In this document: positions 16 through 29,486 of the stretch, one piece after another
Position numbering within the stretch: the stretch's first letter is position 1
Layout: each line of letters opens with the position of its first letter
NCBI GenBank assembly: GCA_963764725.1
Contig: CAVXTM010000008.1
Coordinates: 1 to 29,615 of the forward strand
DNA: 29,615 bases
From: an uncultured Gammaproteobacteria bacterium
GTDB lineage: Bacteria; Pseudomonadota; Gammaproteobacteria; JACCXJ01
Direction of reading: 5' to 3'
Program-made: the position numbers and the translations under genes
Notes under the pieces: model-generated
Told to the model about the DNA's origin: nothing
The model's input: only the letters and a program-made list of their open reading frames with translations
The model's database searches: none

Positions 16-966
16 CTATCGGACCACTGCTGCTGCAAGGGCGAAATAGATGAGGATGGACAGCAGATCCTGGATGACCGTTGCGAGGGGTCCGCTACCG
101 AAGGCCGGGTCGCGCCCCGAGGCACTGAACAACCAAGGGAGCAGCATTGCTGCGAGAGTGGCCGTGGAGCATGCCGCGAACATAGCAAGTCCTACCGCCA
201 GTGCGATGGAGGCATCTCCCCACCGCCACCAGACGAGCGGACCGGCGATCGCAGCCAACGTGAAGCCGATCACGAGGCCTGCAAGCAGCTCGCGACGGAT
301 CATCCGACGCATTGTGACACCGACGGATAGACCCCGCACCACGATCGTCTCCGTCTGAGTGCCAACGGCATCAGCAAGGTACACGATCCCGGGTATGAAG
401 AACGCCAGCATCACCGTCTCTTGCAGATGGCTTTCGAAGCGACCGACGAAGTCCGCAGATAGCAGCGCTCCAGCGAGGCCCACGAGCAGCCACGGAAGGC
501 GGTGACGGAAGCGGCGCTCCACCGTTTCCGTGCTCGTGGACCTGGCCTCCGAGGTGCTCTTCAGGAACCCTCCGAGACGTGTCAGGTCCTCCTCGTGTTC
601 AGCGAGCAGGATCACAAGGAGCCGCTGGGGTGGGATGATGCCGACGAAGCGCCCATCCGCGTCCACCACCGGCAGCGCGGTCTCCTCGTTTCGCACGGCC
701 CGCCACGCGGCAACCTCCTGATCGACACCGGGCGAGACAACAGGAACCTCGCGATCCGCCAGGTCGCCGACTAGAGAGTCATCAGGTGCTGTGAGGAGCG
801 CTTCTATCCTCAGGATTCCGAGGAACTTGCCGTCCTCCTGCACGACGATATGGCTGGCGGTGTCGAACTCCCGGCCCACCAGACCGCGTCGCGCCTCGCC
901 TGCCGTGGTCGCGGGAGATACCAGCGGGACCTTGGTACTCGCGTGTTCGGCGGCGGTCTCACGCAT
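16..966 (-). CDS. mgtE: MgtE-family magnesium transporter (CBS pair + MgtE membrane domain), probable second gene cassette
   Basis: CBS motifs (LPVVDADGRFVGII), RLPWL, GTQTETIVVRGL and DPAFGSGPLATVIQD. The ORF-track start at 990 lies inside the attC, so ATG 966 (or GTG 975) is preferred. Confidence 0.88.
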   Translation of the reverse strand: MRETAAEHASTKVPLVSPATTAGEARRGLVGREFDTASHIVVQEDGKFLGILRIEALLTAPDDSLVGDLADREVPVVSPGVDQEVAAWRAVRNEETALPVVDADGRFVGIIPPQRLLVILLAEHEEDLTRLGGFLKSTSEARSTSTETVERRFRHRLPWLLVGLAGALLSADFVGRFESHLQETVMLAFFIPGIVYLADAVGTQTETIVVRGLSVGVTMRRMIRRELLAGLVIGFTLAAIAGPLVWWRWGDASIALAVGLAMFAACSTATLAAMLLPWLFSASGRDPAFGSGPLATVIQDLLSILIYFALAAAVVR

Positions 967-978
967 CACCGGCACGTC

Positions 979-1068
979 GACCAACGCCACGCTTCAGGCG
1001 CGCCTGGAAGCCGAAGCGACGTTAGGAGCGCAGGCTGTAAGGCGTCGCCCTGCAAGCGATTGTTAGGC
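979..1068 (-). other. attC integron cassette recombination site (90 bp)
   Basis: Minus strand: R'' GCCTAAC, 5-nt spacer AATCG, L'' CTT(G)CAGG, then L' CCTGAAG, spacer CGTGGC and R' GTTGGTC. L'' pairs with L' leaving the canonical extrahelical G, and the stem continues (CG-A-CGCCT/AGGCGCG). The upstream gene's TAA lies within R''. Confidence 0.88.
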
Positions 1069-1599
1069 ACTGCGCTCTGGCGCAAACCAGGCTTCGACAA
1101 GCATACGGTGCTTTTCCGGCACGGCCTCTCCGGCCAGCACGGCCCAGTTGTTTTCAAACCCCAGGGGATCTGAGCTTTTAATGCGAAACCGCCGCATGGC
1201 AGTCTCCGCAACCGCCCTCTGGCGCGTTCGCAGCCAGTAGGCATGCTGCTCACGCACATACGTCGCGACGTAGCCGCTCGGCACGATGAAGAACCTCGAC
1301 AAGTGCTCGACTCCGCGGAGCGCGACAAAGCAATAGAATAAATTCGCATCGACCACGTGCCCGTGTTTCGCACTCATCGGCCAGCCATAGCAAGGCTCGT
1401 TCGAGAACAGCGATTCGTGACGTGGGCCACGGTCGGTCGTCTTGACTTCAATTTTGAACAACTGATTCAACCGTGCGTTCGACACGAGAATATCGACACC
1501 CTTTGTGTTCGCAAGTGTCAACGAGGCTACAAGGCCACGTTGCACGAGCTGCGCAAGAACGTAGAATTCTCCGGCCAAGCCAATCTGTGTGTTGTCCAT
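1063..1599 (-). CDS. PD-(D/E)XK-superfamily nuclease-like protein, first gene cassette (about 985-1618)
   Basis: GLAGE...GVDILV...KIEVKT matches the E...D...ExK catalytic layout. Bounded by G/TTAGGC upstream and its complement GCCTAAC at the stop codon. Confidence 0.75.
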   Translation of the reverse strand: MDNTQIGLAGEFYVLAQLVQRGLVASLTLANTKGVDILVSNARLNQLFKIEVKTTDRGPRHESLFSNEPCYGWPMSAKHGHVVDANLFYCFVALRGVEHLSRFFIVPSGYVATYVREQHAYWLRTRQRAVAETAMRRFRIKSSDPLGFENNWAVLAGEAVPEKHRMLVEAWFAPERSA

Positions 1600-1612
1600 G
1601 GCTTTTTCAAAT

Positions 1613-1619
1613 GCCTAAC
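1613..1619 (-). other. attI-like crossover core G/TTAGGC at the head of the cassette array
   Basis: GTTRRRY core 13 nt before the ATG, exactly complementary to R'' of the following attC. The upstream sequence is AT-rich and not attC-like. Confidence 0.65.
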
Positions 1620-1633
1620 TAGAATTCGATCCC

Positions 1634-1722
1634 GTTTATACATATAGAAGCAGTTTATACTTTTGTAAACTTGTTTATATACATAGTAACCTTCGTGCGA
1701 GCGAGTTTATAGATATATTAAC
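1634..1722. repeat. Four 18-bp quasi-palindromic boxes of the form GTTTATA-N8-A(A/G)C
   Basis: GTTTATACATATAGAAGC (1634), GTTTATACTTTTGTAAAC (1653), GTTTATATACATAGTAAC (1673) and GTTTATAGATATATTAAC (1705), in an AT-rich island within GC-rich DNA. Confidence 0.8.
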
Positions 1723-1728
1723 CCCGCC

Positions 1729-2111
1729 TCACGCCTGGTTGCTCATGACGAACTGTATGATTCTGTTATCGAGGCCGAGTTTAATTACCGTCTCGTAAGG
1801 GAGCTTCCAAAGCCTTTCTTGCGGTTGCCATTGGCCGCCGGCCGCTTTGACCGTCTCTCTGAGCTCGGCTTCGCGATAGTGTATTCGGACCAGCACCGCT
1901 CCGACGGGCGTCGGATCGGGTGCTTTGCGGGGCGGCATGCGTAGGCCGTCGATCCAGGCTTCTTCATCCACAATCAACTCAATGGTTTTGTAACGCTTGC
2001 GCTTGACCTTGTCATAACGATAGCGGACGCAGACGAGGCGGTCGCCGTATTGCGTCGCGAGTCCCGTCTCGTTCCTTTTTGACCGGGTTTGAGTGTCACT
2101 CTGACATCCAT
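1729..2111 (-). CDS. Small basic hypothetical protein (about 127 aa) with one frameshift near 2062; C-terminus resembles DUF5710
   Basis: GGAG RBS 6 nt before ATG 2111. Reads MDVRVTLKPGQKGTRR, frameshift, then LATQYGDRLVCVRYRYDKVKRKRYKTIELIVDEEAW...VRIHYREAELRETVKAAGGQWQPQERLWKL. The ORF track shows only the 3' part (1729-1977). Confidence 0.7.
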
Positions 2112-2177
2112 AGGTTGCTCCGTGTGGGCGATGAGCGGGTCCGCTGTCGGACGGATTAGGCTCCGCCCCGCTCGGCC

Positions 2178-5100
2178 CTAATGAAAATCCCTCGATTGCG
2201 TGCTCAAGCGGCCCAGGAGATCGGTATGATCCTCAAGCTTGCGGGCGAGCACATGCACCACCTCCCCCTCGCGTTGCACCTCGCCGGTGACGCCGAGGAG
2301 GCGAGAGCCCAGCAGCTCTTTGCGTTGCCGATCGACGAGACTGCTCCAGACGATGAGATTGAGGTAGCCCGTCTCGTCTTCTAGCGTGACGAAGACCACC
2401 CCGGTCGCGGTCCCGGGGCGCTGGCGAGTGATGACGAGCCCCGCGGCGCGGACAGGCTCGCCGTGTGGGAGCACGAGGATCCGTTCGGCGGTCAGAAACG
2501 CGAGCCGTGCGAGCTTCGGGCGCAGGAGCGCCAAGGGGTGCCGTCTTAGCGTGAGACCCAGACTTCCGTAGTCGGCCACGATCGCCTCGCCCTCGGTGGG
2601 GCGGCGCAGTAAGGGCGAGGCTTCTTGGACGGTGGTGGCGGCGAGTAACGGCGTCGGTGCTTCGATGCCGAGCACGGCCCAGTACGCCTGAGGCCGCTGG
2701 CCGGCGAGCTGCACCAGCGCATCGGCCGCAGCGAGTGCCTCGAGGTCGCGGCGATTGAGTTCGGCACGCCGTATGAGATCCTGGACATCCATGAAGGCCT
2801 CCGTTGTGCGCGCTTCCACGAGACGCTCGGCACCGCTCTTCGAAAGGCCCTTGACCAAGCGCAGCCCGAGACGAAGCGCGGGTTGAGCATTCGATCCCCG
2901 CTCCAGGGTGCAGTCCCAGGCGCTGGCACCCACATCAACTGGACGCACCTCCACCCCGTGCCTGCGGGCGTCTTGCACGATCTGGGCGGGGGCATAAAAA
3001 CCCATGGGCTGGCTATTCAAAAGGGCGGCCGTGAAGGCCGCTGGGGCGTGACACTTGAGCCAGGCGGAGACATAGACCAAGAGCGCGAAGCTCGCGGCAT
3101 GGCTCTCGGGGAAGCCATACTCACCAAAGCCTTCGATTTGTTTATAGATCTGGCGGGCGAAGCGCTCCGAGTAGCCGCGCGCGCGCATCCCCTCGACGAG
3201 CCGGTGCTCGAAACCCTGGAGGCCGCCGTTGCGTTTCCAGGCGGCCATTGAGCGGCGCAAGCGATCGGCCTCGCCCGGGCTGAAGCCCGCGGCCACCATG
3301 GCAAGTTTAATGACCTGCTCCTGGAAGAGCGGCACCCCCAGGGTACGCCCGAGCACCTCGCGCACCTCTTCGCTCGGATAGCTCACGGGCTCGATCCCAT
3401 GCCGGCGGCGCAGGTAAGGATGCACCATCTCGCCTTGGATGGGCCCCGGCCGGATGATCGCGACCTCGATCACCAAGTCGTAGTAACAGGCGGGCTTGAG
3501 GCGCGGCAGCATGGCGATCTGCGCGCGGGACTCGATCTGGAAGACTCCCATGGTGTCCGCCCTTTGGATCATCGCGTAGGTTGCGGGGTCCTCGGGGGGC
3601 ACGGTGGCCAATGTGAGCTTCTTTCCCTCGAAGCCCTCGATGAGTTCGAAGGCGCGGCGGATCGCGGAGAGCATCCCGAGGCACAGGCAATCGACCTTGA
3701 GGAGCCCGAGCGCATCGAGATCATCCTTGTCCCATTGGATCACGGTGCGCTCGGGCATGGCGGCATTGCGTCCTCGGCGCGCCAAGCAGGGCCGCCTTCG
3801 GCCCCGGCCAGCTTTGGCTGGCGCTCGTACGAGCCCCTGGCCCTGGCTCTCTCGATGGGAACCAGGCGAGCCAGGGGACCGCGGGAGATGATCATCCCGC
3901 CCACATGCTGGGAGAGGTGGCGCGGGAAGCCCACGAGATCTCCAACGAGCTTGGTTAATCGGGCCAGCAGCGGATTATCGGGATCGAACCCCACCTCGCG
4001 CAGACGCTCGCGCGCGAGTCGTTTCCCATCCCACCAGTAGATGTTCTTCGCCAGCCGCTCGACTTGCTCGAGACTCATCCCGAGCGCCTTGCCGACATCC
4101 CGGATCGCGCTCTTAGCACGGTAGGTGATCACGGTCGCGGCGAGAGCGGTGCGCTCGCGCCCGTACTTCTCATAGAGGTACTGGATCACCTCCTCGCGCC
4201 GCTCATGCTCGAAGTCGACGTCGATGTCGGGCGGCTCCTGGCGCTCCTTGGAAACGAAGCGCTCGAAAAGCATCTCCATGCGCGCGGGATCCACCTCGGT
4301 GATGCCGAGGCAGTAACAGACCGCGGAGTTGGCCGCGCTCCCCCGTCCCTGGCAGAGGATACCGCGGCGGCGGGCAAAGGCGACAATATCGTGGACGGTC
4401 AAGAAATAGCTCTCGTAACCGAGCTCGGCGATGAGTTGCAGCTCGTGCCCGATCTGTGCCGTGACTTTCGCGGGTACCCCAGCAGGCCAGCGCCGTTGCA
4501 TGCCCGTCTCGGTCAAATCCCTGAGATACCGGGCCGGCGTCTCGCCCGCGGGCACGAGCTCCTCGGGATATTCGTAGCGGAGCTCGTCCAAGGAGAATTG
4601 ACAACGCTCGGCGATGCGTATCGTCTCGGTGAGTAATTCGGACGGATAAAGCCGCGCCAGGACTTCGCGCCGGCGCAAATGACGCTCGCTGTTCGGATAG
4701 AGCGCATAGCCCGCCGCCTTAACCGTGGTCTTGAGCCGGATCGCCGTCAAGGTATCTTGCAAGGCACGGCGCTCGCGCACGTGCATGTGCACATCCCCCG
4801 CGGCGACGAGCGAAATGCCCGTCTCACGGCTCAGGGCAGTGAGCCTTTCGAGCCTCTCGCCATCGCCGCCCTCGCGCAGTAGCTCGACAGCGATCCAAAG
4901 GCGCTCGGGAAAGCGCCCGGCGAGCCAGCCGGCCTCGGTCTTGAGCCCTTGCAGCTCGTCCAAGCGCCGCCCCGGTAGCAAGAGAGCGAGGCAATGATCG
5001 AGCCCGGCGGCGATGTCCGCGCGTTCCAGCCGGTAGCCCCCCTTGGCCGCTCGCCGCCGCCCTTGGGTGATGAGCGCCGAGAGCCGGCCGTAACCCTCTC

Positions 5101-5356
5101 GATCTTGCGCCAGGAAGACGAGCCGCGGTCCGTCGAGGAACTTCGCCTCAGTGCCAATGATGAGCTTGAGGCCGCGGTCTTTGGCCGCGCTATGGGCCCG
5201 CACCACACCGGCAAGCGAACACTCGTCGGTCAGCGCAATCGCCGTGTAGCCGAGTCGCTGGGCTTCTGCCAGCAACTCCTCGGGGAAGGAGGCGCCTCTC
5301 AAGAAAGTGAAGTTCGAGAGGCAGTGAAGCTCGGCGTAGCAGGGCAAATCCGGCAT
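2178..5356 (-). pseudogene. dnaE2: Error-prone DNA polymerase DnaE2/ImuC, interrupted by an 83-bp insertion at 3768-3850
   Basis: [44 protein letters not shown] and the C-terminal SRDFH. ORFs 3740-5368 and 2178-3785 join as VPIE|NAAM when 3768-3850 is removed. Confidence 0.93.
3768..3850. mobile_element. 83-bp hairpin-rich insertion element inside dnaE2
   Basis: Exact removal restores the frame. Ends are homologous to 7510-7554. Internal palindromes or hairpins GCTCGTACGAGC, CCAGC-TTTG-GCTGG and GGCGCGCC. No clear target duplication. Confidence 0.75.
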
Positions 5357-5389
5357 GGGAGATAACAACCGAGCGCCGCTTGAACCTAG

Positions 5390-6826
5390 TCACAGAATCC
5401 CGTGCACGAACCAGCGCCGCTTCCCCTCGACCTCGCGGAAGACCCAATAGCAAGCGCCGAGGGGATTTCGGGCGACAAAGTAATCGCGCCCCATGGGCTG
5501 TCCATCCCACCAGCCGCTCTCGATGCGCTCCCCGCGCTCTATTAGCTCCAAAGGCCCCCGAAGCCGCGGCCGTCCCTCCCGGACCACGAGCGCTTGGGGC
5601 GGGTCGAGCAACCACAGGGGACGGCTTCGCATGCCCGGTGACGAACTTGCCTCCCCGGGCGAGCAGAAGCACCACGCCGCTTCGGGCCGGTGATCGGGGA
5701 GTAGACGCAGGCCACGGACGGCATCCTCGCCTAAGCGTGCGCGCAGTCGCTCGATGAAGGCGAGGGACTGCGCTTGGCTTTGTTCCTTGCCGCCGGGCAG
5801 GAGCGCGAGCGTGACGCCTGCCAGGGGGCAGAGATCGTCGACGATGAGCCTCAATGCGCGGACAGGCTCGGGGAGCACCAGCCGCTCGAGCCGGCTACGC
5901 AGCAGTTGACCGAGATGCTCCGGATCGCGGCTCGGTGTGAGGAGCGTAAGATTGAACGGAGTCTCGCGCCGCTCGCGATGAATCAGCCGCCAATCGAGTT
6001 GCCGCGCACCCGCCCCTCGCGCCCGCAAGAAGCCCGTCAGCTCCAATAACAGCCGCCGCGCCGCGAACTGTAAAGCTTGGGTGTCCTCGGCCTCATGCGG
6101 GAGATCGAGGAGACGCCCGAAGCGCGCGGGGGGCTCGAAGGGTAGACGCGGGTCCGGCCGCTGGCCCGAGGCGCGGTCGAGCAGACGCACGAGCGCCGGG
6201 CCAAAGCGCCGGGCCAATCCGTCACGGGGCAGGCGCAGGCACTCGCCCACCTCGCGTAGCCCGAGCCCGGTGAGGGCCTCTGCGACGCGCTCATCTACGC
6301 CCAGAACCGCAAGCGGTAAGCGCCTGAGTAGCGCGTGCAGTTGCCGCGGATCGGTGATGCAAACCTCTCGGTGTGCCCTCACGAAAAAGATCGCCGCGAG
6401 CGGCGTGGGCGCGATCGCGAGGAGCGGTTGGTAGCCGAGGTCCAGCACGCCCTCACGCACCTGTTTCACGAGCTTGGCAACGCCCCCGAAGAGCGTGAGG
6501 CTCTGGCCGATCTCGAGCAGGAGAGCATCCGGCGGCGCCAGGCTCACAAACGAGGTGAACTGCCCGCACCAAGCGGCGAGCGCCTCGATGGCGGCCCGCT
6601 CGGCAGATCCACGGGGCGTGTACACTTTGATATCCCCGAGCGCCTGCGCCGCCCCGGCGCGCATCCCCGGCGCGACGCCGAGGGCGTAGGCGGCGCGGTT
6701 GCCTATCCGTATACGCGACTCGCGCCCGGGGGTCGTGAGGACACACGCCTGCGGCGAGTCCCCGAGCCCCAGCGCCTCGAGCGGGAGGGCGGGAAGACCG
6801 AGACAAAGCCAGAGCGAGGTGCGCAT
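5390..6826 (-). CDS. imuB: ImuB, catalytically inactive Y-family polymerase-like protein
   Basis: LLLEIGQSLTLFGG, APTPLAA, DHRPE, RPLWLL and ERIESGWWD...RDYF motifs; lies between imuA and dnaE2. Confidence 0.92.
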   Translation of the reverse strand: MRTSLWLCLGLPALPLEALGLGDSPQACVLTTPGRESRIRIGNRAAYALGVAPGMRAGAAQALGDIKVYTPRGSAERAAIEALAAWCGQFTSFVSLAPPDALLLEIGQSLTLFGGVAKLVKQVREGVLDLGYQPLLAIAPTPLAAIFFVRAHREVCITDPRQLHALLRRLPLAVLGVDERVAEALTGLGLREVGECLRLPRDGLARRFGPALVRLLDRASGQRPDPRLPFEPPARFGRLLDLPHEAEDTQALQFAARRLLLELTGFLRARGAGARQLDWRLIHRERRETPFNLTLLTPSRDPEHLGQLLRSRLERLVLPEPVRALRLIVDDLCPLAGVTLALLPGGKEQSQAQSLAFIERLRARLGEDAVRGLRLLPDHRPEAAWCFCSPGEASSSPGMRSRPLWLLDPPQALVVREGRPRLRGPLELIERGERIESGWWDGQPMGRDYFVARNPLGACYWVFREVEGKRRWFVHGIL

Positions 6827-6848
6827 AACTCAGAGTTGTGAATCAATT

Positions 6849-7466
6849 TTAATCTCGCAAATCCAGATACACGGGCCTCGCACCCGCCCCACCCCGGCGC
6901 TTGAGGATGCTTACTGCCGCGAGCGGCCTGTGCGGCTCCAACATTAAGCGCAAGGCGGCGGGCGAGGCCTCACGGCGGGCCACGAGGGGGCGAAACAGGA
7001 GGCCCAGGCTTCGGCCCGCCTCGGCGGCGAGTTGCAGGCGGCGCAGTCCACGCCCGTCGAGACCACGCGGCCAGGCGAGCACGGCGCTACACGCCCCTGC
7101 GCGCAAGGATTGCTCCAGGGCCCAGAAGCGCTCTCGCGGACTTCCAATCCCCCACACCAGGAGCAGACGTGCGAGCGCGACGCCGTGGGCGGCAAGCGCC
7201 GGGCCATAAGGGAGATGCGGCGGGGAGATCCAGGCCAGCCACTGCTTGGATTGACTCAGGTGCGCGAGGGCCGGCATCACGAGCCGCAGCGCGCCGATGC
7301 CTTCCATGTCGGTCAAGATCTCCGTCAGCGCGCCTCGCGGCCATCCGCCACCGGGGAGGAGCGCATCGATCTCGGCGAAACCGCTCGGGATGGTCTCCGC
7401 CTCGACGGGCAACGCTCGGCCGCAGCGCCAAAGCCGGGGATCGCCCAGCACCGCCTCCAAGCTCAT
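6849..7466 (-). CDS. imuA: ImuA translesion-synthesis-associated RecA/SulA-like protein
   Basis: SGFAEIDALLPGGGWPRGALTEIL, WALEQSLRAG, LRRLQLAAE, SPAALRL and ILKRRGG motifs. Confidence 0.92.
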   Translation of the reverse strand: MSLEAVLGDPRLWRCGRALPVEAETIPSGFAEIDALLPGGGWPRGALTEILTDMEGIGALRLVMPALAHLSQSKQWLAWISPPHLPYGPALAAHGVALARLLLVWGIGSPRERFWALEQSLRAGACSAVLAWPRGLDGRGLRRLQLAAEAGRSLGLLFRPLVARREASPAALRLMLEPHRPLAAVSILKRRGGAGARPVYLDLRD

Positions 7467-7472
7467 ACCTTA

Positions 7473-7639
7473 TTCCGCTTCCATTTCATTCGTATAACTT
7501 TGTCGCCTTGCATCCTCGGCGCGCCAAACAGGCACCGTCCCTGGGCCTGGCTTTCCTCGCTCGCTCCTCGCCTACCACCCACGGTATGTCTCGTCGCTCG
7601 CTCGTCGCTTCGCGTTCTACTTTTGAACTGGAACCGGAA
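7473..7639. mobile_element. MITE-like element with 16-bp terminal inverted repeats and TTA direct repeats, carrying a nested 45-bp element (7510-7554)
   Basis: TTCCGCTTCCATTTCA (7473-7488) matches the reverse complement of 7624-7639 (TTCCGGTTCCAGTTCA) at 14/16. TTA occurs at 7470-7472 and 7640-7642. Confidence 0.65.
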
Positions 7640-8236
7640 TTACCGATAGAGGCGTAGCTTGGCGATCAGCACCCCCTGGATCGTGACGCGCGCGGGGTTG
7701 TACGCCATGGGTTTCAGCGCGGGGTTCTCGGGGATGAGGAGCACCTGAGCGTTTGGGCGCCGGCGAAAGCGCTTAAGGGTCGCCTCCTCGCCGTCGATGA
7801 GGGCCGAGACGATGTCCCCATTCTCCGCCGTCTCCTGGCGCCGGAGGAAGACGAGATCGCCATCGAGGATATCGGCCGCGATCATGGAGTCACCGGCTAC
7901 CTTCAAGACATAGGTCTCCGCCCCGCCGAGGAGAGAAGCCAAATCAATCTCTTCCTGGCCGGGGATGGCCTCGAGCGGCCGGCCGGCCGCGATGCGCCCG
8001 AGCAAGGGGAATACGAGCGGGCGCCGGTGTGGCGGGGCCAAGGCAATACCCCGCCAGCCTCCTTGCCCTTCCTGGAGGTAGCCTTTTCCGATCAGGGATC
8101 GCACATAACGGTGTAGAGTGCCCTTGGATCGGATACCCAGCGCCTGCCCGATCTCCCTGAGCAACGGAGGTTGGCCTTCCCGGTCGGTGTAATCCCGAAA
8201 GATTTCCAGCACGCGCTGTTCGGCAGGAGTCAGCAT
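7640..8236 (-). CDS. lexA: LexA transcriptional repressor
   Basis: N-terminal winged HTH (PPLLREIG), Ala-Gly cleavage site (GRIAAGRP), and Ser/Lys dyad (GDSM, ATLKR). Confidence 0.93.
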   Translation of the reverse strand: MLTPAEQRVLEIFRDYTDREGQPPLLREIGQALGIRSKGTLHRYVRSLIGKGYLQEGQGGWRGIALAPPHRRPLVFPLLGRIAAGRPLEAIPGQEEIDLASLLGGAETYVLKVAGDSMIAADILDGDLVFLRRQETAENGDIVSALIDGEEATLKRFRRRPNAQVLLIPENPALKPMAYNPARVTIQGVLIAKLRLYR

Positions 8237-15929: not shown

Positions 15930-16144
15930 AAGCAGAAATCACACCGAAATTCGTCCAATGGACCGTTTGCTCTGGCCTGGGTCTCTCGGATCTGGCCAGG
16001 ATGGCGCGAGGGGTTGCAAGGCGTGAAGCTTGCGGCTTGTGGTTCGATACAGTTCACCCCACTTGACTGGCTGCACCCCAGCTGAAGAACGCAGCCAAGA
16101 TGAGGACCATGGCGATGATAAGGGCGACGACAGAGGACGCCGAG

Positions 16145-17854
16145 ATGCGTTACGATGTGTTCATCTCCTACAGTCACGGAGCCGATAGCCGGACCGCCGC
16201 GCAACTCCAACGCGCCCTGCAAAGTATAGCCAAACCGTGGTATCGCCTACGTGGCATGCGCGTTTTCCGGGACCAAACGGATTTGTCAGTGGCACCAGAG
16301 GGATGGCCGGCCATCCAATCGGCACTCGCAGAATCTCGGTTCTTATTGTTGATGGCATCCAAACAGGCTGCGGGCTCCAAATGGATCGCTAAAGAACTCG
16401 CCTACTGGCGCACGAATCGCTCCACTGAAACACTACTGATCGCGCTGACGGATGGTGACATCGTTTGGGACGACAGCAGAGGCGACTTCGACTGGGAGCG
16501 GACGACGTCATTGCCAAAGCAGTTATCCGGCGCGAGTCGAAGTGAACCGTTTTGGGCCGACCTTCGATGGACGAGTGAGCAGCAAATATTGACGCTTCGG
16601 AATCCGGAGTTCCTGAGTTCCGTTGCCAAGCTGGCGGCGCCGGTACGTAATCTAGATGTCGCGGAACTTGTCAGTGAAGACCACAGGCAGCATCGTCGCA
16701 CGTTGCGTGCGGCATACGCCACGGGGGTGGCATTGATAACAATCCTGGGAATCGCCTTTTGGCAGTTTCAGTCGAGACTTGCGGCGATCGACCGAGAACG
16801 CGATCAACACGTTTTGGCATCCGTGGCGCGCGCGTACCAGGCACTGTCCGTCGATCCACTTAAAGCCGTTGACGAGGCGCGCGAGGCACTGACGGTGAAA
16901 GAGACTTCGGAAGGCAAGCAGGCCCTACGAACTGCCATGGAAGTCGGCCTGCGCCGCCGCGAGAACCGCCAGGACGAAAGGGAAGTACTTGGCTCAGGTG
17001 TCGGTTACCTGATGGAACGATGGCGACGCGGTGATGTTTTCACGAAGCTGCGAAATGACGGGCGTTACGCACTGGTGGCGAGCGAAAGGGGCAAAGATGG
17101 TCCCAATCCGCCGGGCAACGTTTACATGATCGGCATGGACAACCTGCGCACGAAGGAACTGCAGCCAGGCGATGCAGCCAAGGGTCGGCGTGTCGAGTAT
17201 ATGGGATTCAGCTCGTCAGGAAATGAAATATTCGTGGCTCGCCAGTTCTATCTGGACGTCTACGATCTCGAGGGGAATCGGACTAAGAGTGCGCAGCTTG
17301 AATACCACGCAAAACCGACCCATTTGATCGCTGGCATGTTCGGTTCCTTCGTCCTCGTCGGGGACACAGTCGGCCATGTCATGTTGGCGGACACATCATC
17401 CGAGAAGAGACCGCAATTGAAGGGCGGTCTGTACCCGGACGCCGCTTTGTTCATCGAAAGTAACTCGGAGGCCAACCGTGCGATCGTGGTCTTCGAGTCT
17501 GGGCGAGTCCAGTTCGTCGTCATCAATGACCCGTCCTCCCCGGCTGAGTATGAGCTCGGGACGAAGGGCACGATTCACGCTGCCTTCATTCCACGACCCC
17601 ACACGGGTCGTTTTCTCACGGCGAGTCAAACCGGTCAGATTGATGTGTGGCGATTTGCCGACGGCGCCCCCGTGAAGCTCGCATCGTTCAACCATGGAAC
17701 GACGCCGGTTGGGCTCGCAAGCTTCTCCGGCGACGGGGCGCGAATAATCTCCTTAAGCGACGACGACGTCTATAAGGTCTGGGATATCAGCAAACGGGAA
17801 TTGGTCGTTTCATATCCTTGGGGTATCCGTTCGACGAATCCCGTTCTCCATTGA
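16145..17854 (+). CDS. TIR-domain protein with a TM helix and a C-terminal WD40-like beta-propeller
   Basis: YDVFISYSH, VFRD and SKWIAKEL form the TIR domain. Hydrophobic AAYATGVALITILGIAFW follows, then WD-like blades (GQIDVW, VYKVWDI). GAGG RBS before ATG 16145; the ORF is open from 16100. Confidence 0.85.
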   Translation: MRYDVFISYSHGADSRTAAQLQRALQSIAKPWYRLRGMRVFRDQTDLSVAPEGWPAIQSALAESRFLLLMASKQAAGSKWIAKELAYWRTNRSTETLLIALTDGDIVWDDSRGDFDWERTTSLPKQLSGASRSEPFWADLRWTSEQQILTLRNPEFLSSVAKLAAPVRNLDVAELVSEDHRQHRRTLRAAYATGVALITILGIAFWQFQSRLAAIDRERDQHVLASVARAYQALSVDPLKAVDEAREALTVKETSEGKQALRTAMEVGLRRRENRQDEREVLGSGVGYLMERWRRGDVFTKLRNDGRYALVASERGKDGPNPPGNVYMIGMDNLRTKELQPGDAAKGRRVEYMGFSSSGNEIFVARQFYLDVYDLEGNRTKSAQLEYHAKPTHLIAGMFGSFVLVGDTVGHVMLADTSSEKRPQLKGGLYPDAALFIESNSEANRAIVVFESGRVQFVVINDPSSPAEYELGTKGTIHAAFIPRPHTGRFLTASQTGQIDVWRFADGAPVKLASFNHGTTPVGLASFSGDGARIISLSDDDVYKVWDISKRELVVSYPWGIRSTNPVLH

Positions 17855-28457: not shown

Positions 28458-29486
28458 CTACGCGTTGACCGAAACCCGCGCGCGGTAACCCTCGTCTCGC
28501 CTCAGGAGCGCCCAGATCGCCCGAGCGCTCTTGTTGGCCACCGCCACCGCTGCGATGTTCTTGTTGCGCCGTTTGACGAGGTCGTTGATCCACCGGCTCT
28601 GGGCGTCGGTCTTCTTGGCCGCCGCCTTCACCACGGACCGCGCCCCGTGGATGAGCAGAGTGCGCAGGTAGGTATCGCCCCGCTTGCTGATCCCCAGGAG
28701 CTTGGGCTTGCCCCCGCTCGAATCCTGCCGCGGCACGAGCCCCACCCAGGCCGCGACCTGCCGCCCGGACTCGAACGCTCGACCATCACCGACCGAGGCG
28801 ACGGCCGCCGTCGCCGTGATCGGCCCTACCCCCGGCATCCGGCCAATCCTCTGGCACGCCTCGCTCGCATGGTAGAGCCCTTGGAGCTTGACGCCGTAGG
28901 CCCCCACTTGCCGGTCCAGCTCCAGGACCTGCCGGTGGAGATCGGCAAACAGCTCTCGCGCCAAGCCACTCAGGCCGTTCTCGCCGTCTTCCAAGATCTC
29001 CGGCAGGCGCTTGCGTACCTGCGCCAAGCCCTGACCGATGACGATGCCATACTCGCCTAACAAACCCCGCAGCCGGTTTGCCTGCGCGGTGCGTTCCTTT
29101 ACCAACCCACTGCGTACCCGGTGCAGCGCCAGAATGTCTTGGCTCTCGGTGCTCTTCACCGGCACAAAACGCATGTTCGGGCGCCCCACCGCCTCGCAGA
29201 TTGCCTCCGCGTCGTTCTTGTCATTCTTGTTCCCCTTCACGTAGGGCTTGACGAACTGCGGGCTGATGAGCCTGACCGTATGCCCGAGCTTCCCCAGCTC
29301 CCGCGCCCAGTAGTGTGCGCCGGCGCAGGCTTCGATCCCTACCACGCAAGGGTCGAGGTTGGCGAAGAACGCCAAGACCTGCCCTCGCCTGAGCGACTTG
29401 CGCACCGCGACCTTCCCCTTCCCGTCCACACCGTGTGCCTGAAAGACATTCTTTGCAATGTCTAACCCGATTGTTGTAACGTTCAT
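28458..29486 (-). CDS. IS110-family DEDD transposase/recombinase
   Basis: IGLDIAK, GIEAC and KNDKNDAEAI (DEDD residues); PGVGP, GLVP...SSGG and KRGD.YLR. Confidence 0.96.
   Translation of the reverse strand: MNVTTIGLDIAKNVFQAHGVDGKGKVAVRKSLRRGQVLAFFANLDPCVVGIEACAGAHYWARELGKLGHTVRLISPQFVKPYVKGNKNDKNDAEAICEAVGRPNMRFVPVKSTESQDILALHRVRSGLVKERTAQANRLRGLLGEYGIVIGQGLAQVRKRLPEILEDGENGLSGLARELFADLHRQVLELDRQVGAYGVKLQGLYHASEACQRIGRMPGVGPITATAAVASVGDGRAFESGRQVAAWVGLVPRQDSSGGKPKLLGISKRGDTYLRTLLIHGARSVVKAAAKKTDAQSRWINDLVKRRNKNIAAVAVANKSARAIWALLRRDEGYRARVSVNA

What the first reader, a model, noticed from the sequence alone, without database searches (positions are those of the whole stretch)
1729..2111. 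Hidden full-length small protein at the array head (KPGQxGT...YGDRLVCVRYRYD + DUF5710-like tail)
Seen: the ORF track misses the N-terminus because of a single -1/+2 shift near 2062, but the RBS, ATG and a very basic, aromatic segment (VRYRYDKVKRKRYKT) are intact. From memory, not a search, this is a widespread uncharacterised family. Inference: a nucleic-acid-binding accessory factor (directionality factor, ssDNA-hairpin binder or regulator) for the cassette platform.
Basis: partly seen in the sequence, partly recalled or inferred. Interest (0 to 1): 0.72.

Follow-up and report, generated by a model that had tools for sequence, protein, structure and literature searches.

The report
Broken integron array-head protein gene
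This is a frameshifted, probably dead copy of a widespread small basic protein gene that sits just in front of the site where integrons insert gene cassettes, which points to a so far undescribed part of many environmental integrons.

Summary
On the minus strand, ATG 2111 opens a 45-aa frame. A second frame carries the remaining 82+ aa to the stop at 1729. A syntenic orthologue (L001, 126 aa) shows the window has two extra bases in the C-run 2063-2065.

The family is large: 506 loci in 185,579 species genomes and 3,031 clusters at 50% identity. It matches no Pfam, NCBIfam or PDB entry above threshold. Its tail is only a sub-threshold DUF5710 relative.

The context is new. In relatives the gene is followed at once by:
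- an AT-rich stretch of repeated 18-bp boxes;
- a GTCTAAT-N4-5-GTTRRRY attI-type simple site;
- attC-like sites, 63 downstream against 4 upstream.

In 21 of 80 loci an integron integrase lies directly upstream. Elsewhere, as here, intI sits at another place in the genome.

The window has four boxes (1634-1722), GTTAGGC at 1619..1613, one cassette (ORF 1599..1063) and one attC-like site (979-1068).

My best reading is a box-binding accessory protein of the attI platform that is inactivated in this genome. DNA binding is inferred, not shown. I found no paper describing it.

The parts
2118..2121 (-). Ribosome-binding site GGAG, 6 nt before the ATG
   Evidence: Sequence read directly
2066..2111 (-). 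5' piece of the small gene: ATG 2111..2109, MDVRVTLKPGQKGTR(R), in the frame of ORF 2111..1974
   Evidence: ORF list and three-frame translation; identical to residues 1-16 of relatives except Q11
2063..2065 (-). Break: C-run (G-run on the coding strand) with two extra bases relative to the intact orthologue
   Evidence: Alignment with L001; '2 left out' at 2063 in contigs of X2 and X14
1729..2062 (-). 3' piece of the small gene in the other frame: LATQYGDRLVCVRYRYD... to stop TGA 1731..1729; holds the invariant CVRYRYD motif and the DUF5710-like C-terminal domain
   Evidence: Translation; 97% identity to P0001; profile match 1.3e-44
1705..1722 (.). 18-bp box 1 (+ strand GTTTATAGATATATTAAC)
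   Evidence: the repeat finder D1-D3; GTTTATA 5 matches in the window against 0.54 expected, 4 of them here
1673..1690 (.). 18-bp box 2 (GTTTATATACATAGTAAC)
1653..1670 (.). 18-bp box 3 (GTTTATACTTTTGTAAAC, imperfect dyad)
1634..1651 (.). 18-bp box 4 (GTTTATACATATAGAAGC)
1613..1630 (-). attI-type simple site ATCGAATTCTAGTTAGGC; R box GTTAGGC = 1619..1613, 16 nt before the ATG of the next ORF
   Evidence: Sequence; 2-mismatch match to the GTCTAAT-N4-5-GTTRR pattern found in 30 of 73 relatives against 1 of 365 controls; contigs of four other samples diverge from the window, and from each other, just past 1613-1616 (table 7)
1063..1599 (-). First cassette ORF, 178 aa, no Pfam or NCBIfam family; a GxDIL...IEVKT motif suggests a nuclease-like fold (my reading, not tested)
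   Evidence: weak PHROG matches of unknown function
979..1068 (-). attC-like site, 90 nt: R'' GCCTAAC 1068..1062 (contains the cassette's TAA stop), paired arms with three extra bases in the 5' arm, R' GTTGGTC 985..979
   Evidence: The only hit of my attC-like detector in the window, with 0 hits in 5 shuffles at each of 4 thresholds; sequence. Folding energy is not better than shuffles (z -0.46 and -0.24)

Best explanation
Window 2111..1729 (minus strand) is a frameshift-inactivated copy of a widespread, stand-alone, basic protein of about 115-126 aa. The protein has two domains and belongs to the fixed 'head' of integron cassette arrays. In intact relatives the gene is followed within about 80-130 nt by three to five lineage-specific 18-bp boxes, often dyad-symmetric and set in AT-rich DNA. 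An attI-type simple site (GTCTAAT-N4-5-GTTRRRY) comes next, and then cassettes ending in attC sites. An integron integrase gene lies directly upstream in about a quarter of the loci examined, either divergent or co-directional. In the others it lies elsewhere in the genome. The most likely mechanism, which is inferred, is that the protein binds the boxes next to its own gene and shapes the attI region. It would act either as an architectural helper for IntI-mediated attI x attC insertion or as a gate on transcription running into the cassettes. Arrays with this head would be serviced in trans by an IntI encoded elsewhere. In this genome the head sits behind the lexA-imuA-imuB-dnaE2 operon with one cassette. 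The gene carries a 2-base insertion, and the only other copy in the genome is also a pseudogene, so the function is probably lost here.
For: Shown:
- Break and intact orthologue.
- Family size: 506 of 527 candidate stretches in species genomes encode a relative; 3,031 clusters at E<=1e-3.
- IntI-like hit beside the gene in 23 of the 82 loci searched, none in the window. 21 of these are true neighbours (14 divergent, 7 co-directional). The other two are another recombinase (L002) and a 24-aa remnant (L020). All 19 neighbours scanned match TIGR02249; the first scores 449 bits against a cut-off of 265.
- attC-like sites: 63 in 245.9 kb downstream against 4 in 387.1 kb upstream. At least one downstream in 30 of 51 loci with 1 kb or more of flank, against 2 of 79 upstream.
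- Simple site in 30 of 73 loci against 1 of 365 controls. GC drop over 0.1 in 61 of 73 against 11 of 365.
- Repeated 12-mers in the first 130 nt after the stop: median 8 pairs against 0.88 in shuffles. 46 of 74 loci beat all 30 shuffles. Window: 11 pairs against 1.08, reached by 0 of 200 shuffles.
- Boxes go with the small gene, not with intI. The intact intI of this genome (C15) has an attI with GTTGGGC but no small gene, no box pattern and 0 repeat pairs. 54 loci without intI nearby keep the same layout, and 17 of the 30 with 2 kb or more downstream have attC-like sites.
- Genomes with the gene have IntI. In the class sample 11 of 12 have it at E<=1e-70, against 114 of 301 overall. The twelfth has an adjacent IntI fragment. 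5 of 5 further unlinked genomes have IntI elsewhere.
- IntI and small-protein identities correlate over 19 linked loci (Spearman 0.34; 12 of 2,000 permutations reach it).
- Contigs from four other samples diverge just past GTTAGGC.
- Median pI 9.73. Confident two-domain model, pLDDT 84.6.
Inferred: box binding and the role in recombination or expression.
Against: - No DNA-binding fold or family was recognised. Foldseek found no hit at E<=0.001. VIA-align gave a best Z of 4.1 for the whole model and 2.2 for the N-domain. The PDB sequence search gave only E 1.5.
- Box 7-mer similarity does not track protein similarity: Spearman 0.07 with the small protein and 0.10 with IntI, neither significant.
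- My attC and box detectors are home-made and crude. 21 of 51 loci with 1 kb or more downstream show no attC-like site, and 43 of 73 lack the strict simple-site pattern.
- The window's attC-like site does not fold better than shuffles.
- Only one attC-like site lies in the window, and no intI within 29.6 kb.
- No sigma-70-like promoter was found in 900-2400.
- The 80 loci are those most similar to the query, not a random sample of the 506.
- In the class sample most heads are unlinked from intI, so a direct IntI partnership is not required by the data.
Confidence: 0.55

Rival explanations
1. The protein binds the boxes but acts purely as a transcription factor. It would be a repressor, activator or roadblock controlling read-through from its own promoter into the promoter-less cassettes, with no part in recombination.
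For: The boxes lie between the gene and the first cassette, in AT-rich DNA. Cassettes follow in the same orientation. Heads work without a neighbouring intI, and the canonical Pc inside or beside intI is missing in such heads.
Against: No sigma-70-type promoter-like site lies in window 900-2400. The boxes abut the recombination simple site at a rather fixed distance (median 82 nt from stop to L box), as accessory sites do in attI1 (passages of PMC3146285 and PMC8946536). No helix-turn-helix or ribbon-helix-helix fold was recognised.
Confidence: 0.3
2. The gene is a passenger with no platform role: a very successful first cassette that lost its attC, or a hitch-hiker. The boxes would then be accessory binding sites for IntI itself, like DR1 and DR2 of attI1.
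For: attI1 has IntI-bound direct repeats (passages seen). Elsaied et al. 2011 (PMC3146285, passages seen) report first cassettes with complete ORFs but no attC. In L044 the gene lies with attC-like sites on both sides.
Against: Same position and orientation across at least ten phylum labels. attC-like sites are almost never upstream (2 of 79). In 7 loci the gene follows intI co-directionally at 6-111 nt, ahead of the simple site. This genome's own intact IntI has an attI without boxes. The protein sequence is strongly conserved, with 20 invariant columns in 30 sequences.
Confidence: 0.12
3. The two extra bases are an assembly or sequencing error, and the organism has an intact, working gene.
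For: The extra bases lie in a homopolymer run. Relatives in other samples lack them. The source reads could not be examined.
Against: One base read as three is an unusual error. Other long ORFs in the window are intact. The neighbouring dnaE2 is broken by an 83-nt insertion, which is not a base-calling error. The genome's other copy of the family is N-truncated with a TAG stop. Two of its four intI loci are also broken. Decay of integron parts is therefore the pattern in this genome.
Confidence: 0.15
4. The shift is programmed: ribosomal frameshifting makes the full-length protein.
For: The two frames overlap and the RBS and ATG are intact.
Against: Every close and distant relative examined is a single ORF. 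The orthologue differs only by the 2-base indel. A +2 or -1 shift is needed, and no slippery heptamer lies at the site.
Confidence: 0.01

Closest known systems
attI1 of class 1 integrons (simple site L/R plus direct repeats DR1 and DR2 bound by IntI1)
   Same: A GTTRRRY R box where cassettes enter, an inverted L box, and extra repeated sites on the intI-proximal side that favour attI x attC (passages of PMC3146285 and PMC8946536). The window has GTTAGGC, an L-like box and four repeats.
   Different: Here the repeats are 18 bp long, in three to five copies, often dyad-symmetric, AT-rich and lineage-specific. They always come with a dedicated small protein gene, and they occur without a neighbouring intI. 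No such gene is part of the textbook platform of intI, attI and Pc (introduction of preprint 10.64898/2026.03.17.712381, passage seen).
Recombination directionality and architectural factors of tyrosine-recombinase systems (lambda Xis type). Established knowledge, recalled, not taken from a call.
   Same: A small basic protein encoded next to the recombination site, with arrays of its presumed sites flanking the core site.
   Different: No sequence or fold likeness was found. Binding is not shown. Integron integrases act on a folded attC strand, and no encoded helper is known for them.
CALINs (clusters of attC sites lacking a nearby integrase; Cury et al. 2016, PMC4889954, passages seen) and the 'orphan attI-like heads' noted earlier in this scan
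   Same: Cassette arrays without a neighbouring intI, in genomes that hold intI elsewhere.
   Different: These arrays keep a recognisable attI-type head and a conserved protein gene. The window shows only one attC-like site before the contig ends.
DUF5710 (PF18974)
   Same: The C-terminal beta-alpha-beta-beta stretch (...ELRxxVKxAGGxWxPxxKxWxLxY) gives recurrent weak matches: 14 of 30 members at E<=0.1. An Atlas cluster named DUF5710 scores 0.81.
   Different: All matches are below the gathering score. The N-terminal KPGQxGT...CVRYRYD domain matches nothing, and hhalign finds no likeness between the two halves (probability 0.5%).

Membership tests
Uncharacterised KPGQxGT / CVRYRYD family (alignment A1) | Conserved core: G13, Y21-G22, L25, C27-V-R-Y-R-Y-D33, R39, T42, E44, W52, and the C-terminal E..LR..VK.AGG.W...W motif | tested here: met
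   The profile matches the window at 1.3e-44 over profile positions 13-114. The window is 97% identical to P0001. Invariant columns are listed.
Uncharacterised KPGQxGT / CVRYRYD family (alignment A1) | Single uninterrupted ORF of about 111-135 aa | tested here: not met
   Two frames are split by a 2-base insertion at 2063-2065.
Integron (complete) | Integron integrase gene (TIGR02249 / IntI patch) next to the array | tested here: not met
   No integrase-like hit in the window. IntI is present elsewhere in the genome: C15 intact, C7 with a TAA stop, C13 split, C12 partial.
Integron (complete) | attI-type simple site with a GTTRRRY R box at the junction with the first cassette | tested here: met
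   GTTAGGC lies at 1619..1613 with an L-like box. Contigs of four other samples diverge just past it. Recombination activity itself was not tested.
Integron (complete) | Cassettes ending in attC sites (RYYYAAC ... GTTRRRY, paired arms with extra-helical bases) | tested here: met
   One attC-like site lies at 979-1068 after ORF 1599..1063, found with my own detector and not with IntegronFinder's model. The placing of the extra bases on the 5' arm of the coding strand matches what I recall of attC(aadA7). Its fold energy is not above shuffles.
CALIN | At least two attC sites without an integrase nearby (threshold recalled from IntegronFinder) | tested here: inconclusive
   Only one attC-like site was found, and the contig ends 978 nt further on.
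DUF5710 (PF18974) | Score at or above Pfam's gathering cut-off (26.5 bits) | tested here: not met
   Window piece 12.9 bits, E 0.096. P0001 has no hit. Best among 30 members is E 3.2e-4.
Xis/RDF-type or other known DNA-binding folds | Recognisable fold or profile match | tested here: inconclusive
   Foldseek found no hit at E<=0.001. VIA-align best Z was 4.1 and 2.2. PDB sequence search gave E 1.5 only.

The most novel reading that the evidence does not exclude
Many environmental integrons have a fourth, unrecognised platform part. It is a ~120-aa protein encoded immediately 5' of attI that binds arrays of lineage-specific 18-bp boxes and licenses cassette insertion or expression at that site. 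The module of gene, boxes and simple site can stand apart from intI. It would then create satellite docking sites that an IntI encoded elsewhere serves in trans. This would be an encoded counterpart of the unknown accessory protein(s) postulated for attI x attC recombination in sedentary integrons (PMC8946536, passages seen).
Probability: 0.45. Interest if true: 0.85.

Novelty: new variant of a known kind. Interest (0 to 1): 0.74.

Why it matters
The textbook integron platform has three parts: intI, attI and Pc. It is an open question why some chromosomal integrases need unknown helpers to insert cassettes at attI. A conserved protein gene fixed between intI and attI, or heading arrays with no intI nearby, would change that picture. 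It occurs in about 500 species genomes from at least ten phylum labels and always comes with its own array of boxes. It gives a concrete candidate helper or regulator, and a sequence signature for finding array heads and orphan attI sites in metagenomes. At least one cultured carrier exists (Salinisphaera hydrothermalis EPR70, locus L066), so the idea can be tested. For this genome the result is more ordinary: the copy is broken and probably non-functional.

Tried and rejected
- IntI with small protein complex prediction (alignments A4 45-365 and A5). The job was never accepted because the queue was full, so there is no result.
- Source reads. No listed run holds more than 0.29 of the sampled words. 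The four runs laid are contigs of relatives.
- Fold searches. Foldseek against PDB, VIA-align on the whole model and VIA-align on the N-domain gave nothing above background. The PDB sequence search gave only a papillomavirus E2 stretch at E 1.5, which I treat as chance.
- NCBIfam, PHROGs and PADLOC gave nothing for the family.
- No match in 72,556 plasmids.
- Fused or longer forms. None came from the 'longer' search. The 180-281-aa rows that I looked at have low-complexity N-extensions without Pfam domains, probably mis-called starts.
- Internal duplication of the two domains is not supported (hhalign probability 0.5%).
- LexA-box (CTGY-N8-RCAG) upstream of the gene: 2 of 80 loci, about what chance gives, and none in the window.
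- dnaE2 as a recurrent neighbour: seen only in the orthologous locus L001.
- Covariation of box 7-mers with either protein was not significant.
- My first two attC detectors were too strict and missed the window's site.
- A perfect-arm dyad count gave only about two-fold enrichment and was replaced by the repeat statistic.
- Rfam and tRNA scans found nothing near the locus.
- Earlier-findings look-ups by place and by sequence were empty.
- Literature searches found no paper describing this protein or the boxes.

Full report
**1. The observation.**
The gene lies on the minus strand. GGAG (2121..2118) and ATG (2111..2109) open a 45-aa ORF, MDVRVTLKPGQKGTRR.... A second frame is open from above 2139 to the TGA at 1731..1729. 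It reads ...LATQYGDRLVCVRYRYDKVKRKRYKTIELIVDEEAW...IIQFVMSNQA.

A 5.8-kb contig of a Chromatiales MAG (L001) is syntenic with window 7556..1645. Over the gene and its 3' flank it is 96% identical. There the window has CCC (2063-2065, + strand) where L001 has one C. The defect is therefore a 2-base insertion.

P0001 (126 aa, 97% identical) and every full-length homologue read are single ORFs that span the break.

The source reads could not be found: the best run holds 0.29 of the sampled words. Contigs of relatives lack the two bases in X2 and X14 (one contig each). X9 has another variant, and X1 contigs end there.

Several observations make real decay more likely than an assembly error, at about 85:15:
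- dnaE2 next door carries an 83-nt insertion.
- The only other copy of the family in this genome (C18) lacks its N-terminus and has a TAG stop.
- Two of the four intI loci are broken.
- The other long ORFs of the window are intact.

**2. The family.**
- 248 of 254 candidates score E<=1e-3.
- 506 of 527 candidate stretches in one-genome-per-species contigs encode a relative.
- A profile search of 1.84 billion representatives finds 3,031 clusters at E<=1e-3 and 1,775 at E<=1e-10.
- Members are 111-135 aa and basic (median pI 9.73), with 20 invariant columns in 30 sequences.
- Nothing reaches threshold in Pfam, NCBIfam, PHROGs or PADLOC.
- DUF5710 recurs below threshold in 14 of 30 members.
- AlphaFold gives two confident domains (residues 1-47 and 70-120) joined by a poor linker, mean pLDDT 84.6.
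- No solved fold stands out and no PDB sequence relative was found.
- No fused forms were found, and there was no match in 72,556 plasmids.

**3. The context in the window.**
Upstream on the same strand lie lexA (8236..7640), an imuA-like gene (7466..6849), an imuB-like gene (6826..5390) and a broken dnaE2 (5368..2178).

Downstream of the stop the GC content falls to 0.35, against 0.61 for the whole window. Four 18-bp boxes, each starting GTTTATA on the + strand, lie at 1634, 1653, 1673 and 1705. GTTTATA occurs 5 times in the window against 0.54 expected, and no shuffle reaches 5.

The sequence ATCGAATTCTAGTTAGGC follows, with GTTAGGC at 1619..1613, 16 nt before the ATG of a 178-aa ORF (1599..1063). 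That ORF's TAA stop lies inside GCCTAAC, the start of a 90-nt attC-like site (1068..979). The site has paired arms with three extra bases on the 5' arm. It is the only such site my detector finds in 29.6 kb, with none in shuffles. Its folding energy alone is not unusual.

Contigs from four other samples match the boxes (6 to 26 contigs per run at place 1650). They then diverge from the window, and from each other, just past 1613-1616, with consensus agreement of 0.62-0.72. This is what different cassettes at one attI would give.

**4. The context in relatives.**
I examined the 80 loci most similar to the query.
- An IntI-like hit was found in 23 of the 82 loci searched, and none in the window.
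- 21 of these are true neighbours. In 14 the intI is divergent. In 7 it is co-directional, ending 6-111 nt before the small gene.
- The other two are a different recombinase downstream (L002) and a 24-aa remnant (L020).
- All 19 neighbours scanned match the integron-integrase model TIGR02249. L024 and L071 were not scanned.
- attC-like sites number 63 downstream (245.9 kb) against 4 upstream (387.1 kb).
- At least one lies downstream in 30 of 51 loci with 1 kb or more of flank, against 2 of 79 upstream.
- Contigs end within 350 nt downstream in 23 of 80 loci and never within 350 nt upstream. This fits a repeat or variable junction at that point.
- The first 120 nt after the stop are more than 0.1 poorer in GC than the locus in 61 of 73 loci, against 11 of 365 control segments.
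- A GTCTAAT-N3-6-GTTRR site (one mismatch allowed) follows in 30 of 73 loci against 1 of 365 controls, at a median of 82 nt.
- Repeated 12-mers in the first 130 nt have a median of 8 pairs, against 0.88 in dinucleotide shuffles. 46 of 74 loci beat all 30 shuffles.
- The boxes differ between lineages. Examples are GTTTCTATATATAGAAAC types in many Gammaproteobacteria and GCATCTAATAGTAGATGC types in Acidobacteriota and Chloroflexota.

**5. Linkage to intI across genomes.**
In an even sample of the window's class, 12 of 300 genomes hold the gene (one genome was not scored). IntI at E<=1e-70 is in 114 of 301. That tally includes three unpublished genomes, G039, G141 and G296, none of which has the small gene.

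11 of the 12 carriers have IntI. The twelfth, which is 81% complete, has an IntI 3' fragment directly upstream of the small gene. In the other non-own carriers intI is on another contig or 137 kb to 2.4 Mb away. Five further unlinked carriers all have IntI elsewhere (5 of 5).

In a quick, poorly resolved tree, intI-linked rows are scattered, and an 18-row clade of Pseudomonadota and Thermodesulfobacteriota is entirely unlinked. IntI and small-protein identities correlate over the 19 linked pairs (Spearman 0.34; 12 of 2,000 permutations reach it).

The intact intI of this genome (C15) has an ordinary attI (GTTGGGC, then a HicB/HicA cassette). It has no small gene, no box pattern and no repeats.

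**6. The reading.**
The gene is not a cassette. It has no attC of its own, a fixed position and orientation, and it lies on the intI side of the simple site in both intI orientations. The boxes travel with the gene and not with intI.

I therefore read the protein as the binder of the boxes and as part of the attI platform. Two roles remain open:
- a helper for insertion, like the accessory repeats of attI1 or an Xis-type architectural protein;
- a gate on transcription into the cassettes.

Binding itself is inference. No fold, promoter or covariation result supports it directly.

**7. What is known.**
Seven full-text searches found no paper on this protein or the boxes. I read passages, not whole papers, of four works:
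- Elsaied et al. 2011 (PMC3146285) note first 'cassettes' with ORFs but no attC, and say that most environmental attI sites lack direct repeats.
- Cury et al. 2016 (PMC4889954) define CALINs.
- The review PMC8946536 says IntIA seems to need unknown accessory protein(s) for attIA x attC.
- A 2026 preprint lists intI, attI and Pc as the platform.
I could not see the supplements of these papers, and they may already list the family.

Earlier notes of this scan describe orphan attI-like heads without an integrase in other genomes, but not this protein. I did not test them.

**8. Verdict.**
The copy in this window is most likely a pseudogene heading a one-cassette remnant behind an SOS mutagenesis operon. 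The family behind it looks like an undescribed, testable component of many environmental integrons.

Noticed in passing
window 3768-3850 (within dnaE2, 5368..2178, minus strand): The error-prone polymerase gene dnaE2 is split into two ORFs by an 83-nt insertion that is absent from the syntenic orthologue L001. The insert contains short inverted repeats and may be a small mobile or repeat element.
   Followed up: partly
window 8236..2178 (minus strand): A lexA, imuA-like, imuB-like, dnaE2 SOS mutagenesis cassette is transcribed towards the array head. This adjacency is shared only with the orthologous locus L001 among the loci searched.
   Followed up: partly
G000 C18:706493-706771 (L082 1471-1773): A second, N-truncated copy of the family with an in-frame TAG stop. 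It is preceded by a HicB/HicA-like pair. It is followed by remnant boxes, a GTTAGCC site and a 255-aa ORF that I read as DUF4263/Shedu-like (not scanned), so it is another decayed array head.
   Followed up: partly
G000 C15:164702-165643, C7:99992-100918, C13:52921-53691, C12:400958-401382: The genome holds one intact integron integrase (C15, with a canonical attI and a HicAB first cassette), one with a TAA stop, one split and one partial. There are also several near-identical copies of another tyrosine recombinase of about 334 aa.
   Followed up: partly
window 16100-17854 (+): A 584-aa protein with an N-terminal TIR domain and a WD40-type beta-propeller, with weak matches to ThsB/TIR defence models in PADLOC. 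It is a possible defence gene.
   Followed up: no
window 28458-29486 (-): An IS110-family transposase (DEDD_Tnp_IS110 plus Transposase_20 domains).
   Followed up: no
L020 and L021 (same Acidobacteria MAG): Two copies of an identical small gene with identical boxes. One lies beside a full intI and the other beside only a 24-aa intI remnant. The simple sites differ at the R box (GTTCGGC against GTTAGGC) and different cassettes follow.
   Followed up: no
L090 (G164:C1:2741506-2741844): An intact family member whose box region is missing. I read the downstream ORF as a transposase (not scanned), which would mean an insertion sequence replaced or displaced the attI head.
   Followed up: no
L028 1586-1720: In this locus an attC-like hairpin (ATCTAAC ... 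GTTAGCC, 64 nt) follows the gene after only about 36-75 nt, instead of the usual simple site. It may be an empty cassette or an attI x attC hybrid.
   Followed up: no
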